A stretch of 14,013 nucleotides of DNA from a virus. Position numbers: made by a program. Shown piece by piece: positions 6,001 through 12,000 of this stretch. The stretch is from UHGV virus genome UHGV-1734115; one strand, 5' to 3'. The first letter of the stretch is position 1. Every line of letters begins with the position of its first letter.

Positions 6001-9000
6001 GTGAATTTAGTCTGGATAGCCATAAGTGTTTTATCCATTTTTGGGAACTCCTGGCTGATTAAGTATGTCGATAAGGCGTTTCCATCCATCACGTAATTTA
6101 CGTGTGATTCGTTCAAGTAAAGATTCGGAAGGGCAGCCAGCAACAGGCCACCCTGCAATGGCATATTGCATGGTGTGCTCCTTATTTATACATAACGAAA
6201 ACGCCTCGAATGAAGCGTTATTGGTATGCATATAAAAAAGCCCTCACATTGGAGGGCAAAGAAGATTTCCAATAATCAGAACAAGTCGGCTCCTGTTTAG
6301 TTACGAGCGACATTGCTCCGTGTATTCACTCGTTGGAATGAATACACAGTGCAGTGTTTATTCTGTTGTTTATGCCAAAAATAAAGGCCACCATTAGGCA
6401 GCCTTGTTGTTCTGTTTACCAAGTTCTCTGGCAATCATTGCCGTCGTTCGTATTGCCCATTTATCGACATATTTCCCATCTTCCATTACAGGAAACATTT
6501 CTTCAGGCTTAACCATGCATTCCGATTGCAGCTTGCATCCATTGCATCGCTTGAATTGTCCACACCATTGATTTTTATCAATAGTCGTAGTCATACGGAT
6601 AGTCCTGGTATTGTTCCATCACATCCTGAGGATGCTCTTCGAACTCTTCAAATTCTTCTTCCATATATCACCTTAAATAGTGGATTGCGGTAGTAAAGAT
6701 TGTGCCTGTCTTTTAACCACATCAGGCTCGGTGGTTCTCGTGTACCCCTACAGCGAGAAATCGGATAAACTCTATTCACCCCTACAGAGAGCAAAAGAGA
6801 AACGCCGATGAACAACTCATGGTGGCAGGAACTAATGCATTTTTTCCTGCAAGGAATGACACTTAAACAGTTGATTCATATGCTAATCATCCTGATCATA
6901 TTGATTATTGTTATGCCGGTAAGCGTAAAAGAATGGATAAACCTGCATAATCCAGAAATCCTTCCTTATTATTGGATGTATTACATCCTGTTGTTCTGCG
7001 TTAGCTATGTGCTTAACGGTGTTGTTAATTCCGCTTATCACGCTGTGACTGAAAGAATTGAGGTATCCGCTGCTCAGAAGCGCAAATCTAAAGAAGAAAA
7101 ATATGTGCAAGATTTGTTTGATTCGTTAACTCTTGGAGAAAGAGCGTATTTGGCATTCGCTGTAGCCGCGAATAACCAGCTAAAGACAGAAAAGGGAAGC
7201 CCTGAAGCAATCTCATTGCTCGAAAAAGGGCTTCTTATTCGGATACCTTCTGCTACTGGATATCCTGAAATCGACCGTTTTGTTATCCCGGAACGCTATA
7301 GAAATGAGTGCTACATTCGGTTTGCCGGGAAGGCAGACAGCCTTATGGATGAACTTATCGCTCAGGATAAGCATGGCAAAAACAAGTAATTAGCAAATGA
7401 ATTTATCATCTCGCCGTCAGTTGTTTTGATTTCCGGTAGCCTGCCGCGTAAAGAGCTACGTTCGGAAGACAAGTTGAACCTTCATATTTTCTGGTCAACG
7501 TTGTCAGAGTTATCACTTCTGCTCTCATTGCTGGTTTGCGCTTGCATTGCAAGACCACTCGTGAAGGGGTTGGCCTGTGTAGCTTGTCGGAGCTGATCGC
7601 CTCCTGACTTTGCAGATTTGCGCGACGCTCTCTACGGCGAGAAGCTGCGGTTCCTTTAAATTCTGTTTTTCTGGACATGGATTCCTCCCGAATAAACTCT
7701 GGCGATGCAATCCCGAAGCTACTCCTGAGAGAGTTGCTTCGGCATTGCATCCCACAGCTTATGTGGTTGGGTGATCTGGCTTTTCAGCCACGTAGTCGAG
7801 TGTTCGACGTTGTTTAAAGAGCCTGCCAGTCTGTTCCGTTTGGCTTACAGCGTCCTGCTGATGAGTTAACTTTATCGAAATGATAAATTAATGGCAATAG
7901 CAAAATGATAAATTGTTTTAGTTTTCAAATATCCTGTTGATTATTATGGTTTTTTATTTGATTGCAGGAATTTATCAGAAGGAATAAAGAGACTTGAGGG
8001 GGATCAGAATTGCGCGTTTTAGTGAGTTGTATCTGTTTATTTTTCAACAAATACAATTGGTTATGGTGTTATTAGGTGTGGGGATCGTGAGGCAAAGAAA
8101 ACCCGGCACTGAGGCCGGGTGTGTATTAGGGGGTTGAGACTCCAGAGAGCAATCCGTAGATTTTATATACAGTAAATGCTAATGCTGGCAAGCCAAGGGC
8201 CCATTTGATTATATCAAGCTTAACATCACTAAGCTTACCTTCTAACTTTGCCTCTTGAACAGAAAGAGCTGCATCGATCTTTTTTGATTGGGAGTCAAGG
8301 GCACTCTCAATTCTACTCGATTGTATGTCCAGACGACTGTTGATTTGTTCGTGCTGAGTAACAACTAAATGCTTCATCTCCTTTATATCTGAAGCCATTA
8401 GTTCACGCCATTTGGCCATATCAGCCTGCATTTTTGAGGCCACTGCATCCACTTCAGCTTTATTTGCCTTCAGAAGTGCCTGTATTTCGTTTCTGCTCAA
8501 ATCGGACATTGCGGTTCCCTGTATAGGAGTTTCCTCGTACGGTGGGATAACATTAGATTGTCCTTTACAATCGGCAACCCCTCCTTTATCTACGATTGTA
8601 GCAGTTAGCTGGGAATTGGTCGCATCATCCACCATGTTTTTTGGTGAATAAGAGGAAATAGGCGTAGAAAACAGATTACCTTTTGCTGTTTCCATGAACA
8701 TCATGAAATCGCGAGTATTAACGTTATTCAGGGAAACTTGCAGTGGTTTAACAATACTTGATGTTTTGTAAGTAATAGTTAAATCACCTACTTCTTCCGG
8801 TTGTTGCATTACGACTTCGCTCCATTAGAGTTTTGTGCCTCTAATTGTTCGAAAAGAAGAACTATATTCTCTTGAAGAGCCTTTAGTTGTGCCATTGGCA
8901 TTATCACAGTGCATTGCTGATTGAGTTCATTTACAGAGCCTATCTGCATATTCGCTCTACCTGGTTGATCTGGTATATCATTTTGGGATAGTACCGCAGG

Positions 9001-12000
9001 TATTGACTTGTTTGCGATAAAATGTATACAAATGAGATTTTTTTCCGCTCCCGGTAGTGGAGCAAAACTAGCGAAGTCCGCATAGGTTTCAATATAATCC
9101 ACAGATGGTTTAATTTTGACCGGTTCCATAACGCCTCTCATCAAATATTGTAGGTTTTTTAATTCAATGTGTTAAATGTTGGTGGTGTGTTATTTAAAGT
9201 TATTTTGACATCCTCCACGCCCTGAAGGACGGGGCTTGTCGCGTACTTGAAGTCACAAACTTTTCAGCCACTCCCTTGCCTCGATGTCATCCAGATGACG
9301 AGATTGCTTCAGAATACCAGCCACATACTCCACCTTTGCTACTTGATGATAAGGTAACGTTATTGGCCTGTGGTCCTGGTTGATGCTTGTAAATTGGTAT
9401 TCTCCATCTCTGTCATAGCCAAGAATCTTGATCATGTTGTGTCCTTCAACGGTTCTGACAAACACCTCATCCCCCGGGAATACTTTGGTGTTAGGCTCAA
9501 TGAGTACATATTCTCCTGATTTTATTCTAGGCCACATGCTGTCTCCTTTCACACGAAGACCAAAGGCATCTGGATCATCGCTATAAATCTTGAGCCACCC
9601 ATCGCGCTCTTCGGTCATCTCGATGGCACCATCAACACCAAGAATTGCCTCACCAACCACGCGCACTAACCCTTTTCTTACCTGACCGACAAAAGTTAAA
9701 GAATCTGAGCATGATGCAATTGGTGTTACATCATGTACCAAATCAAGCCACCCATTAGGTAACCCAAGTGCGGCTTCGAATTTTCTTGCTAGTTTATCCC
9801 CTATGTTTCGAGTGCTTTTTTCACCGGAGACTTGCGTGAGTTGAGAAGGGCTAACTCCAAGCTTATCGGCAAAGCTTGCATTAGTGTTACCCGCGATTTT
9901 TTTATGCTCATCTAGCAAAAACGCCAGATTCGATTTGCGAATATCTTTGTTTTCCATCCCACGATTCTCCCTCTATTTAGCAAATGGATAAATACGCATT
10001 TTGATAAATCTCCATTGCAGTTTATTTATCAAAATGGTAAAGTTGCTCTGTGTGATAAACGGAGGCACTAATGAGTAATGAACTACTACGCTGGCGAAAA
10101 GAGGCTTCTAGTGAGGAATGGAAGCGACTCGCCGCATTAGCGAATACTTCAGTTGGCTATCTTGATCAGATTGCATATGGGTTTCGAAGAGCTTCCCCAG
10201 ATAAAGCGAATGCAATCGAAGAAGCCACTCGTAATTTCACGGGTTATAAACCTGTGAAAAAGGAAAATCTGGTGTTCGTATCGCGTAGAGCATCAGCAGC
10301 ATAAGTAACCCCGCTCTTTGTAACAACGGACATTCGTCCTACGTCGCTGAAAAGCGAATCCCAGAATATCTGACCAACCAAGGCCATATGCGTTTCCACG
10401 CATACCTTTCAACTAGCTATTCACTATTGGAAATCATAAGAAATGGAACAAACAAGTTACAGCAAACTATCCCAGCGTGACGTTGATCGCGCAGAAACAG
10501 ATTTACTCATCAACCTGTCAACGCTTACCCAGCGCGGTCTGGCAAAGATGATTGGCTGTCATGAATCGAAGATAAGCAGAACGGACTGGAGATTTATTGC
10601 TTCAGTCTTGTGTGCTTTCGGAATGGCATCAGACATCAGTCCGATTAGTAGGGCTTTTAAGTATGCGCTTGATGGAATCACAAAGAAAAAATCCCCGGTG
10701 GCCGCCGGGGACTCTAAGCAAATTGATATGCAATTCTGAGGGAATTACTGGATCAATCCACAGGAGTAATTATGACAAAACGTCGTAAGAAATACCAGGA
10801 AAAAGAAGAGATTCGACACCCTGATTCACCTGAGGGATTAGTGGTAGCCGCAGCAAATAACAGGGCGTTCGCAGAGCGCCTTGTTGGTGTTTACAGACTA
10901 GCCAAAGCAGGAGTGAAGCATGGGCGTCGTTAAGTTAGCTGATTACAGGCATAACCCTGTACAACATCAGGAGGCATCCAGTATGGGGTATGTCTCTATA
11001 CACCGCCAGTTTATGGACAGCAGGCTCTATAAGGACTCTCAGGCAGTACATCTTTGGCTTCACTTAATCCTCAAGGCTAATCACGAATCTACTGTCGTCA
11101 ATACGGATATCGGGCCGATAACTGTTGATCGCGGTCAGATGATAACTGGACGCCCGTCGCTGGTCAGAGAAACATTCATCCCCGACAACAAAGTTCGGAG
11201 CTTATTACGGACTTTTGAGTCGAAAGGGATGCTTAATATTTGCTCGATGGGGAAGAAATTTAGCCTGTTTACAATCGTTAAATATGACGATTTTCAGGCA
11301 AAAAATTGTCCAACGGTTGTCCAACGGTTGTCCAACGCAAACACCAGTAATGGCGCGGCTCTCAGCGGAGATTGTCCAACGGTTGTCCAACGGTTGTCCA
11401 TAAACAATAATATAAATAATATCTCTAATACTGACGTATTAGAGAGTGCCACAGCAGACAAAAAGTCTGACAAGAAAAAACCTTCCGTCAGCTGTCAGGA
11501 TGTTGTCGATGCTTACCACGAAATCCTTCCTGAAGCGCCAAGAATCCGCGCACTGAATGACAAGCGTAAAAACCAGATCCGAACGTTCTGGCGCAAAGCC
11601 GGAGTAATAACACGCCAACTTGACGGGCATGGGTTCACGATGCAGGACTGGAGAAATTATTTGAGCTACGTTGGCGAAAATTGCCGATGGATGTTCGAAG
11701 AGCGCCCAAACCATCAACGCGGAACCGTCTGGCACAAAAAGGGATTTGATTTCCTGCTTAACGATAATACCTACCTGAAAGTTCGTGAGGGTGAACACGA
11801 TGACCGATAATTTTTATGCGCCGCCCCATAGCATCGAGGCAGAGCAGGCGGTGATTGGTGGATTGCTTCTGGATGATGACAGCAGTGAGCGCGTCCAGAA
11901 AGTTCTGGCGATGCTGAAGCCTGATTCATTTTACAGCCGACCACACAAAATCCTTTTCGAAGAAATAACCAGAATGCACCGGGAGCAAAAGCCAGTAGAT

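What the first reader, a model, noticed from the sequence alone, without database searches (positions are those of the whole stretch)
7778..10357. Mirror-image nutL/nutR with conserved boxA, helper hairpin, TACGT and boxB (GCUGAAAAGC), paired with an N protein carrying RRRERRA
Seen: both early transcripts carry the same composite element about 100 to 240 nt downstream of their promoters (nutL on the minus strand at 7778..7823, nutR on the plus strand at 10312..10357). The N-like protein (7406..7678) has the arginine-rich motif RRRERRA. Established knowledge: lambda N binds boxB through its arginine-rich motif, and boxA recruits NusB/NusE. Unusual points: the boxA to boxB spacing is about 23 nt (longer than the roughly 8 nt I recall for lambda) and a conserved extra hairpin sits between them on both sides, suggesting a variant nut architecture.
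Basis: partly seen in the sequence, partly recalled or inferred. Interest (0 to 1): 0.5.

Follow-up and report, generated by a model that had tools for sequence, protein, structure and literature searches.

The report
Known N antitermination sites, VT2-Sakai type
The two mirror-image elements are the real nutL and nutR sites of a lambda-like E. coli prophage, paired with its N protein, and both this version and its extra spacer hairpin are already annotated or studied in Shiga-toxin phages, so the finding is correct but ordinary.

Summary
The composite element boxA, hairpin, UACGU, boxB occurs exactly twice: 7778-7823 on the minus strand and 10312-10357 on the plus strand. Each copy lies in the sense of an early transcript. 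None is expected by chance.

The 90-aa protein at 7406-7678 (minus) is an N antiterminator. It matches Pfam N_peptide (E 1.6e-32) and is 98.9% identical to N of VT2-Sakai.

The VT2-Sakai GenBank record already annotates near-identical homologous sequences as putative nutL and nutR. The nutR helper hairpin plus UACG is identical to the spacer of phage H-19B nutR, which has been studied experimentally. From memory, Neely & Friedman (2000) described that spacer dyad symmetry as the "reducer".

Across 27 distinct related sites both hairpins covary: 99.3% of cells are paired, and 7 of 11 pairs show compensatory changes.

The N arginine-rich motif tracks the boxB loop. RRR(E/A)RRA..LQ motifs go with a U-closed GAAA/GCAA tetraloop. 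H-19B-type motifs go with GACAA.

Verdict: a correct identification of a known system. The only under-explored point is the natural GNRA-tetraloop boxB paired with a lambda-like motif. Interest is low.

The parts
7406..7678 (-). N antitermination protein gene (90 aa; arginine-rich motif GTAASRRRERRANLQSQ at residues 9-25)
   Evidence: Pfam PF25694 N_peptide at E 1.6e-32, covering residues 1-90. PHROG 271 'anti-termination protein N-like' at 2.5e-25. 98.9% identical to N of VT2-Sakai, Stx1-converting phage, 1717, YYZ-2008 and 2851. The motif aligns to lambda N AQTRRRERRAEKQAQ in PDB 5lm7/6gov (weak overall, E 0.34).
7869..7897 (-). pL-like promoter (TTGCCA-17-TAAAGT) with TTTATCA-type operator repeats
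   Evidence: Consensus scan. It has the same layout as the pR candidate. Inferred, not tested.
7810..7822 (-). nutL boxA, GCUCUUUAAACAA (consensus CUUUA type)
   Evidence: Compare rrn boxA UGCUCUUUA and lambda CGCUCUUA in PMC2724277. Invariant in about 100 related loci.
7795..7808 (-). nutL spacer ('helper' or 'reducer') hairpin, GUCGA-acac-UCGAC
   Evidence: Folds. Only the loop varies among close relatives (acac, actc, ctc, atc, gcac). The stem covaries across the family.
7777..7794 (-). nutL UACG linker plus boxB, U-GGCU-GAAA-AGCC-A (GNRA tetraloop closed by U-A)
   Evidence: Annotated as part of 'putative N-utilization leftward' at the homologous VT2-Sakai sequence.
10015..10043 (+). pR-like promoter (TTGCAG-17-TAAAGT)
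   Evidence: Read. It parallels pL but is below the threshold of the scan. Inferred.
10312..10326 (+). nutR boxA, CGCUCUUUGUAACAA
   Evidence: Identical to the VT2-Sakai nutR boxA. Differs from H-19B/BP-4795, which has CGCUAUUUUCACAA.
10328..10339 (+). nutR spacer hairpin, GGAC-auuc-GUCC
   Evidence: Identical to the H-19B nutR spacer reconstructed from oligo RS663. Folds. Covariation.
10340..10357 (+). nutR UACG linker plus boxB, U-CGCU-GAAA-AGCG-A
   Evidence: VT2-Sakai annotation 'putative N-utilization rightward'.
10387..10405 (+). tR1-region hairpin AUAUGCGU-uucc-ACGCAUA, between nutR and cII
   Evidence: Fold. The homologous VT2-Sakai stretch is annotated 'putative rho dependent terminator for pR transcript'. 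The H-19B nutR/tR1 region is used as a Rho-dependent terminator in PMC3526286.

Best explanation
These are the cognate nutL and nutR RNA sites of a lambda-type N antitermination system, of the VT2-Sakai specificity class and with H-19B-type spacer architecture.

Proposed mechanism:
- RNA polymerase leaves pL or pR and transcribes boxA, the spacer hairpin and boxB.
- The N-terminal arginine-rich helix of the 90-aa N protein binds the boxB stem-loop. The loop is a true GNRA tetraloop closed by U-A. That equals the lambda GNRA fold without the extruded fourth base, which fits an N motif core (RRRERRA..Q.Q) nearly identical to lambda N's.
- The consensus boxA is available for NusB/NusE, and NusA binds at the spacer.
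- The spacer hairpin folds away 12-14 nt, so boxA and boxB end up separated by about as few unpaired bases as in lambda or P22. This is the 'reducer' idea.
- The RNA-tethered complex makes RNA polymerase resistant to tR1 and to the terminators of the leftward operon.

Shown here: the sequence elements, their orientation, RNA-level covariation of both stems, homology of N, and co-variation of N motif with boxB loop.

Inferred: N-boxB binding, use of Nus factors, the reducer role of the hairpin, and terminator readthrough.
For: - N is a family member: Pfam N_peptide at 1.6e-32, PHROG 271, and PGAP names the homologue 'transcriptional antitermination N peptide'.
- The composite motif occurs exactly twice, one copy per early transcript in sense orientation, with 0 expected by chance.
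- The VT2-Sakai record AP000422 annotates the homologous, near-identical sequences as putative nutL and nutR.
- The nutR spacer GGACAUUCGUCC-UACG is identical to H-19B nutR, reconstructed from antisense oligos labelled boxA, spacer and boxB. PMC3526286 reports two hairpins in H-19B nutR, with NusA/N protecting the spacer and boxB.
- Covariation across 27 distinct sites: 99.3% of cells paired, against 70.7% in shuffles and at most 46% with slid partners. Seven of 11 pairs show double changes. The covariation score is 0.615 against 0.128, reached by 0 of 500 shuffles.
- G-U cells occur only on the transcribed strand, which points to RNA rather than DNA structure.
- All true nut contexts have a hairpin filling the spacer, compared with 9 of 67 chance pattern hits.
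- N motif and boxB loop agree in all classified loci. RRR(E/A/D)RRA..LQ goes with GAAA/GCAA in both nutL and nutR. RSRRRERLKAKALAN goes with GACAA.
- nutR matches N across at least 5 different cro contexts.
- The window shares cro and cII with BP-4795/H-19B, yet its nutR boxA and boxB are Sakai-type, matching its N.
Against: - There are no functional data for this prophage or, as far as I could find, for the VT2-Sakai-class N. The GenBank nut features are labelled 'putative'.
- The isolated 48-nt nutL RNA is predicted to prefer an alternative fold that pairs boxA with the 3' half of boxB (-15.1 against -12.8 kcal/mol). The two-hairpin form is the minimum-energy fold of the full leader.
- The reducer role rests on H-19B work I recall from memory (Neely & Friedman 2000). 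Only the citation could be confirmed; the paper is not held.
- From the same recollection, H-19B N does not need boxA or NusB. Here boxA is consensus, so factor requirements may differ from H-19B.
- The related sequences are phylogenetically non-independent, which inflates the shuffle statistics. The slid-partner control, which keeps relatedness, also supports the structure.
Confidence: 0.9

Rival explanations
1. The spacer hairpin is not a passive 'reducer'. It is a specific functional determinant: for example a NusA or N contact surface, a pause hairpin that gives N time to load, or a structure that hinders Rho loading on the overlapping rut/spacer region of nutR-tR1.
For: In H-19B nutR, both Rho and NusA footprint on the spacer, and Rho and N-NusA co-occupy it (PMC3526286). 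The flanks ACAAC and CUACG next to the stem are strongly conserved, and the outermost G-C pair is invariant in 27 of 27 sites. This suggests sequence-specific recognition at the helix junction.
Against: Stem sequences, stem lengths (4-6 bp) and loops (3-9 nt) vary freely, as expected if only pairing matters. From memory of Neely & Friedman 2000, deleting the dyad had little effect, while disrupting one arm inactivated the site and compensatory changes restored it.
Confidence: 0.25
2. boxA and the 3' half of boxB form a regulated alternative structure, an RNA switch that hides boxA and destroys boxB until N or Nus factors capture the two-hairpin form.
For: The sequence (G/C)GCUCUUU is complementary, with one C bulge, to AAAAGC(C/G) in both sites. 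It is the minimum-energy fold of the isolated nutL, and it competes at about 50% in nutR.
Against: The complementarity follows automatically from a consensus boxA plus a GCU-GAAA-AGC boxB. Family members whose nutL lacks boxA (H-19B, epsilon34, S137) cannot form it. In the full leaders the two-hairpin fold is the minimum-energy fold. Co-transcriptional folding favours the local boxB hairpin.
Confidence: 0.08
3. The inverted repeats act at the DNA level as protein-binding palindromes, or are chance similarity between the two arms of the immunity region.
For: They are perfect short palindromes in DNA. One is flagged as terminator-like on the opposite strand.
Against: Zero occurrences are expected by chance. 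Stems change sequence completely while keeping pairing. They include G-U pairs that would be A-C mismatches on the other strand. Both copies are always in sense orientation between a promoter and the first downstream gene.
Confidence: 0.02

Closest known systems
VT2-Sakai (Sp5) N with its annotated putative nutL/nutR (GenBank AP000422); the same class in Stx1-converting phage AP005153, Nil2, 1717, YYZ-2008 and 2851
   Same: N is 98.9% identical. The nutR core is identical. nutL is identical except for one base in the helper-hairpin loop. The features are already annotated as N-utilization sites.
   Different: The immunity region differs. The window carries a BP-4795/H-19B-like cI-cro, so nutR sits behind a different cro. 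Window N has E17 (RRRERRA) where most relatives have A17.
Phage H-19B (also BP-4795 and 933W-type) N/nut, with dyad symmetry in the nut spacer (Neely & Friedman, Mol Microbiol 2000; Sen laboratory papers PMC3526286 and PMC4499122)
   Same: The architecture is the same: ACAAC, hairpin, CUACG, boxB. The nutR spacer hairpin is identical. The N proteins are homologous (41% identity, same C-terminal LPNVALYAAGYRKSKQLTAR). The cI-cro-cII region is about 95% identical.
   Different: H-19B boxB has a GACAA pentaloop and its motif is RSRRRERLKAKALAN. Here the loop is a GAAA tetraloop and the motif is AASRRRERRANLQSQ. H-19B boxA is degenerate or absent, whereas here it is consensus. H-19B N is 127 aa, against 90 aa here.
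Phage lambda N / boxB (PDB 1QFQ, 5LM7, 6GOV)
   Same: The motif core RRRERRA..Q.Q is nearly identical. boxB has a U-A closing pair and a G-A-A-A GNRA fold. The order is boxA, spacer, boxB, in both early operons.
   Different: Lambda boxB is a pentaloop (GAAAA or GAAGA) whose fourth base is extruded (PMC12027372). Here that base is absent. No Trp18 equivalent aligns. The lambda spacer is 8-9 nt and unstructured. The overall protein similarity is not significant (E 0.34).
Phage P22 gp24 / boxB (PDB 1A4T)
   Same: Same Pfam family and C-terminal motif. The boxA consensus is CGCUCUUUAAC.
   Different: P22 has a short unstructured spacer with no helper hairpin, and GACAA loops.

Membership tests
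Lambda-type N/nut processive antitermination | Small N protein with an N-terminal arginine-rich motif, homologous to known N proteins | tested here: met
   Pfam PF25694 at 1.6e-32. PHROG 271. 98.9% identity to VT2-Sakai N.
Lambda-type N/nut processive antitermination | One nut site in each early transcript, in sense orientation downstream of pL and pR | tested here: met
   Two copies only, on opposite strands, each between a promoter-like site and the first downstream gene.
Lambda-type N/nut processive antitermination | boxB stem-loop with a conserved loop and a covarying stem | tested here: met
   boxB helix is 100% paired over 27 sites. The outer two pairs show compensatory changes: GC/CG/AU and UA/GC/AU/CG.
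Lambda-type N/nut processive antitermination | boxA (CGCUCUUA / UGCUCUUUA-like) 5' of boxB | tested here: met
   GCUCUUUA in nutL and CGCUCUUUG in nutR, compared with the consensus quoted in PMC2724277.
Lambda-type N/nut processive antitermination | Cognate specificity: the N motif matches the boxB of both sites | tested here: met
   Motif class and loop class agree in all loci examined, including nutR across different immunity regions.
Lambda-type N/nut processive antitermination | N- and Nus-dependent readthrough of downstream terminators; N binds boxB RNA | not testable with these tools
   Only a tR1-region hairpin homologous to the annotated VT2-Sakai/H-19B tR1 is seen.
H-19B-type nut (spacer dyad symmetry, 'reducer') | Base-paired hairpin occupying the boxA-boxB spacer at both nutL and nutR | tested here: met
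   Helper helix is 98.5% paired, and 5 of 6 pairs show changes on both sides. The nutR hairpin is identical to H-19B's.
H-19B-type nut (spacer dyad symmetry, 'reducer') | H-19B specificity: GACAA pentaloop boxB with an RSRRRERLKAKALAN motif | tested here: not met
   The window has a GAAA tetraloop and an AASRRRERRANLQSQ motif. It belongs to the VT2-Sakai specificity class instead.
H-19B-type nut (spacer dyad symmetry, 'reducer') | boxA and NusB/S10 dispensable (as recalled from Neely & Friedman 2000) | not testable with these tools
   boxA here is consensus and invariant in about 100 loci. This hints, but does not show, that it is used.

The most novel reading that the evidence does not exclude
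The VT2-Sakai/epsilon34 clade may be a natural, experimentally uncharacterised N specificity class. In it a lambda-like arginine-rich motif that lacks the Trp18 equivalent reads a bona fide 4-nt GNRA tetraloop (GAAA or GCAA) rather than a pentaloop with an extruded base, combined with a consensus boxA and a spacer hairpin.

If the extruded base of the pentaloop contributes to NusA-dependent complex assembly in lambda, as I recall but could not verify, this clade would assemble its complex differently and could show altered Nus-factor requirements. It would also offer a ready-made orthogonal N/boxB pair.
Probability: 0.3. Interest if true: 0.35.

Novelty: already known. Interest (0 to 1): 0.15.

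Why it matters
The finding mainly serves as a correct annotation. It places the early-transcription control of a common E. coli prophage type, shared with the major Stx2 phage of O157:H7 Sakai, in the N/nut paradigm.

The survey adds two modest points. First, it gives clean comparative (covariation) support for the spacer hairpin as RNA structure: about ten distinct stems were found. Second, it provides a natural 'swap'. The window and H-19B/BP-4795 share cro and cII, but their nutR sites differ in the boxA region and by one base in the boxB loop, in step with their N proteins.

N-dependent early expression lies upstream of Q and stx expression in Stx phages, so class differences in N/nut could in principle affect induction kinetics. 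This is untested.

Tried and rejected
- Rfam (E-value mode, 7300-10900) has no family covering nut sites. The only hit was a spurious Listeria sRNA.
- The GTDB genome scan with the N alignment returned only 4 loci, of little use.
- The first N-based viral scan returned only near-identical relatives. Diversity came from annotated phage records and a DNA-pattern scan. About half of the pattern-scan hits were chance matches, which I used as a negative control.
- Neely & Friedman 2000 and Cocozaki 2008 are not held in the library. The 'reducer' experiments and the NusB/boxA independence of H-19B are therefore cited from memory; only the citation is confirmed.
- Papers on Stx-phage regulatory diversity do not discuss N or nut.
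- DNA-level palindrome and chance explanations were rejected.
- The boxA:boxB alternative fold was considered and judged a by-product of the two consensus sequences.
- MAFFT cannot align hairpins of different lengths. I therefore anchored the spacer at both ends, defined the arms by length only (not by pairing), padded with N, and checked that MAFFT kept the columns.
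Full report
**What is there**

The window is the early regulatory region of a lambdoid E. coli prophage. It is 99.4% identical over 3 kb to the chromosome of E. coli strain 702/18.

Gene order:
- sieB, 6808-7389 (+)
- N, 7406-7678 (-)
- nutL, 7778-7823 (-)
- pL-like promoter, 7897..7869 (-)
- a terminator ending the repressor operon, 8120..8101 (-)
- two genes of unknown function, 8126-9144 (-)
- cI, with an S24 peptidase domain, 9253-9957 (-)
- pR-like promoter, 10015-10043 (+)
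- cro, 10071-10304 (+)
- nutR, 10312-10357 (+)
- a tR1-region hairpin, 10387-10405 (+)
- cII, 10443-10739 (+)
- replication genes further right

**Check of the observation**

- nutL RNA: GGCUCUUUAAACAAC / GUCGAacacUCGAC / UACGU / GGCUGAAAAGCC
- nutR RNA: CGCUCUUUGUAACAAC / GGACauucGUCC / UACGU / CGCUGAAAAGCGA

The shared 17-mer TACGTSGCTGAAAAGCS occurs exactly twice, once on each strand. None was found in 200 shuffles.

In the complete leaders, both the helper hairpin and the boxB hairpin are part of the minimum-energy fold.

The boxA-to-boxB distance is about 24 nt, against 8-9 nt in lambda.

By my promoter reading, nutL lies about 40-85 nt and nutR about 260-305 nt from the start sites.

**The protein**

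The 90-aa product matches Pfam N_peptide (E 1.6e-32) and PHROG 271.

It is 98.9% identical to N of VT2-Sakai, the Morioka Stx1-converting phage, 1717, YYZ-2008 and 2851. It is 41% identical to the 127-aa N of H-19B/933W/BP-4795-type phages, and about 42% identical to P22 gp24.

Against solved structures, the only similarity is the arginine-rich motif itself. AASRRRERRANLQSQ aligns with lambda N AQTRRRERRAEKQAQ (overall E 0.34, so this is a motif resemblance and not proof of homology to lambda N).

**It is already annotated**

The VT2-Sakai record AP000422 carries the features 'putative N-utilization leftward' and 'putative N-utilization rightward'. Their sequences are the window's nutL and nutR. 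The nutR core is identical, and nutL differs by one base in the helper loop.

The window shares cI-cro-cII with BP-4795 at about 95% identity.

I reconstructed H-19B nutR from the antisense oligos RS662-RS665 in the supplement of PMC3526286. Those oligos are labelled boxA, spacer, boxB and downstream. The reconstruction is identical to BP-4795 nutR, and it contains the same GGACAUUCGUCC-UACG spacer as the window.

That paper states that H-19B nutR has two hairpins, and that N plus NusA protect the spacer and boxB.

The spacer dyad symmetry of H-19B nut sites was the subject of Neely & Friedman 2000. The citation is confirmed, but the paper is not held. What follows is from memory: one-arm mutations inactivate the site, compensatory changes restore it, deletion is tolerated, and the stem was named the 'reducer'. 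I also recall that H-19B N needs NusA but not NusB, S10 or boxA.

**Comparative test**

I collected three sets of loci:
- 80 loci encoding the Sakai-type N
- 12 diverse annotated phages
- 120 loci from the pattern scan CTACGNNGCTGAN{1,2}AAGC

Every genuine nut context has a hairpin that exactly fills the space between an ACAAC-like end of boxA and CUACG. About ten distinct stems occur:
- GAAGGU/GCCUUC
- GAUUC/GAAUC
- GAUUCA/UGAAUC and GAUUCG/UGAAUC
- GGAC/GUCC
- GGACG/UGUCC
- GGGC/GUCC
- GGCC/GGCC
- GGUGAA/UUUACC
- GGUGA/UCACC
- GUCGA/UCGAC

Only 9 of the 67 chance pattern hits have such a hairpin.

I built an alignment of 27 distinct sites, anchored at both spacer ends with the arms defined by length alone. 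The results:

| Measure | Observed | Control |
|---|---|---|
| Cells paired | 99.3% | 70.7% in shuffles; at most 46% with slid partners |
| Pairs with changes on both sides | 7 of 11 | - |
| Helper-helix pairs with changes on both sides | 5 of 6 | - |
| boxB pairs with changes on both sides | the 2 outer pairs | - |
| Covariation score | 0.615 | 0.128; reached by 0 of 500 shuffles |

The G-U cells lie on the transcribed strand, so the structure is in RNA.

P22, 1H12, HK629 (phi21-type N) and HK620 lack the helper hairpin and have short spacers. The hairpin therefore marks the H-19B/Sakai/epsilon34 branch of the family.

**Specificity**

The N motif and the boxB loop co-vary without exception in the loci examined.

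| N motif | Found in | boxB loop (both nutL and nutR) |
|---|---|---|
| RRR(E/A/D)RRA(N/A/H)LQ | Sakai-type 90 aa; epsilon34/S137-type 120 aa; several more divergent N proteins | U-GAAA-A tetraloop |
| Sakai-like (RRRAHRAELQ) | POCJ13 | GCAA in nutL and GAAA in nutR, both GNRA |
| RSRRRERLKAKALAN | H-19B type | U-GACAA-A |

nutR lies on the far side of the highly mosaic immunity region from N. Even so, nutR matches N behind at least five unrelated cro alleles.

The clearest case is the window itself. Its cro and cII are H-19B-like, but its nutR carries the Sakai-type boxA and the one-base-shorter loop, matching its Sakai-type N.

Lambda N recognises a GNRA fold formed by a GNRNA pentaloop with one base extruded, and it needs the U-A closing pair (PMC12027372). 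The window's boxB is that fold without the extra base, and it pairs with a lambda-like motif.

**Mechanism**

- Shown: the elements, their orientation, RNA structure supported by covariation, N homology, and cognate co-variation.
- Inferred from established knowledge of lambda, P22 and H-19B: N binds boxB through its arginine-rich helix; NusB/NusE bind the consensus boxA; NusA binds the spacer; the helper hairpin shortens the effective spacer; and the RNA-tethered complex lets RNA polymerase read through tR1 and the leftward terminators.

**Rivals**

- A specific role for the hairpin (NusA or Rho related) is possible. The invariant outer G-C pair and the conserved flanks support it.
- A boxA:boxB alternative fold is predicted for isolated nutL. 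It looks like a by-product of the two consensus sequences, and it is absent where nutL lacks boxA.
- DNA-level or chance explanations are excluded.

**Verdict**

The finding is a correct reading of a known system. The 'variant architecture' is the H-19B-type nut, and this exact allele is the VT2-Sakai nut, which is widespread. About 79 phage records carry this N at 80% identity or more, and there are hundreds of viral contigs.

Novelty: already known. Interest: low. The residual open point is that the natural GNRA-tetraloop class of boxB appears not to have been characterised experimentally, as far as the held literature shows.

Noticed in passing
window 7692-7762 (-): There is a very stable long hairpin in the N leader, between nutL boxB and the N Shine-Dalgarno sequence. 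The 193-nt leader folds at -78 kcal/mol with z = -6.66. From memory, its position matches the RNase III-processed N-leader hairpin of lambda that controls N translation. Related N leaders also show long-range stems ending just before the conserved CCAAAG plus Shine-Dalgarno sequence.
   Followed up: partly
window 7778-7823 (-) and 10312-10357 (+): boxA (G/C)GCUCUUU is complementary, with one C bulge, to the 3' half of boxB, AAAAGC(C/G), in both sites. Isolated nutL prefers this alternative fold (-15.1 against -12.8 kcal/mol). In nutR the two forms are about equal.
   Followed up: partly
window 8126-8809 (-) and 8809-9144 (-): Two genes of unknown function sit in the lysogenic operon between cI and the terminator, in the slot occupied by rexAB-like morons. 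The 227-aa product matches PHROG 14825 (unknown function) and has a weak CCDC90-like coiled coil. The 111-aa product matches nothing. There is no convincing PADLOC hit. BP-4795 carries a HigB toxin-antitoxin and other genes in this slot.
   Followed up: partly
window 10304-10312 (+): There is a mosaic joint at the end of cro. Left of it the window is BP-4795/H-19B-like. From boxA onward it is VT2-Sakai-like in boxA and boxB. The spacer hairpin and the tR1 region are common to all three.
   Followed up: yes
window 7406-7678 (-), residue 17: Window N reads RRRERRA, the lambda N core. Most Sakai-type N proteins read RRRARRA, and one reads RRRDRRA. In lambda N the corresponding Glu9 is reported as largely inert to substitution (PMC12027372).
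   Followed up: partly
window 10688-10715 (-): A strong intrinsic terminator, AGAGTCCCCGGCGGCCACCGGGGA followed by a T run, lies antisense within the 3' end of cII. This is the position of the lambda oop RNA terminator. HK629 annotates an oop-like RNA at the equivalent place.
   Followed up: no
window 8101-8120 (-): An intrinsic terminator, ACCCGGCCTCAGTGCCGGGT followed by a T run, ends the cI/moron operon just upstream of pL. It is equivalent to the pRM-transcript terminator annotated in VT2-Sakai.
   Followed up: no
L193 about 1237-1340 (+): A viral contig has one boxA plus helper hairpin followed by two boxB-like hairpins in tandem, CGCUGACAAAGCG and then GCGCUGACAAAGCGC.
   Followed up: no
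L085 (Shigella phage POCJ13), upstream of N at 6001: The nutL boxB loop is GCAA while the nutR loop is GAAA. The N motif is RRRAHRAELQS. This is a natural GNRA variant pair within one phage.
   Followed up: partly
L090 and L095 (Salmonella phages SPN9CC and 101962B_sal5), upstream of N: The nutL boxB is divergent, GCUCCGUCAACGAGC, with a 4-bp stem and a 7-nt loop. The nutR loop GACAA is closed by U-G. The N motif is H-19B-like. In 101962B_sal5 the C-terminus of N is also frameshifted.
   Followed up: no
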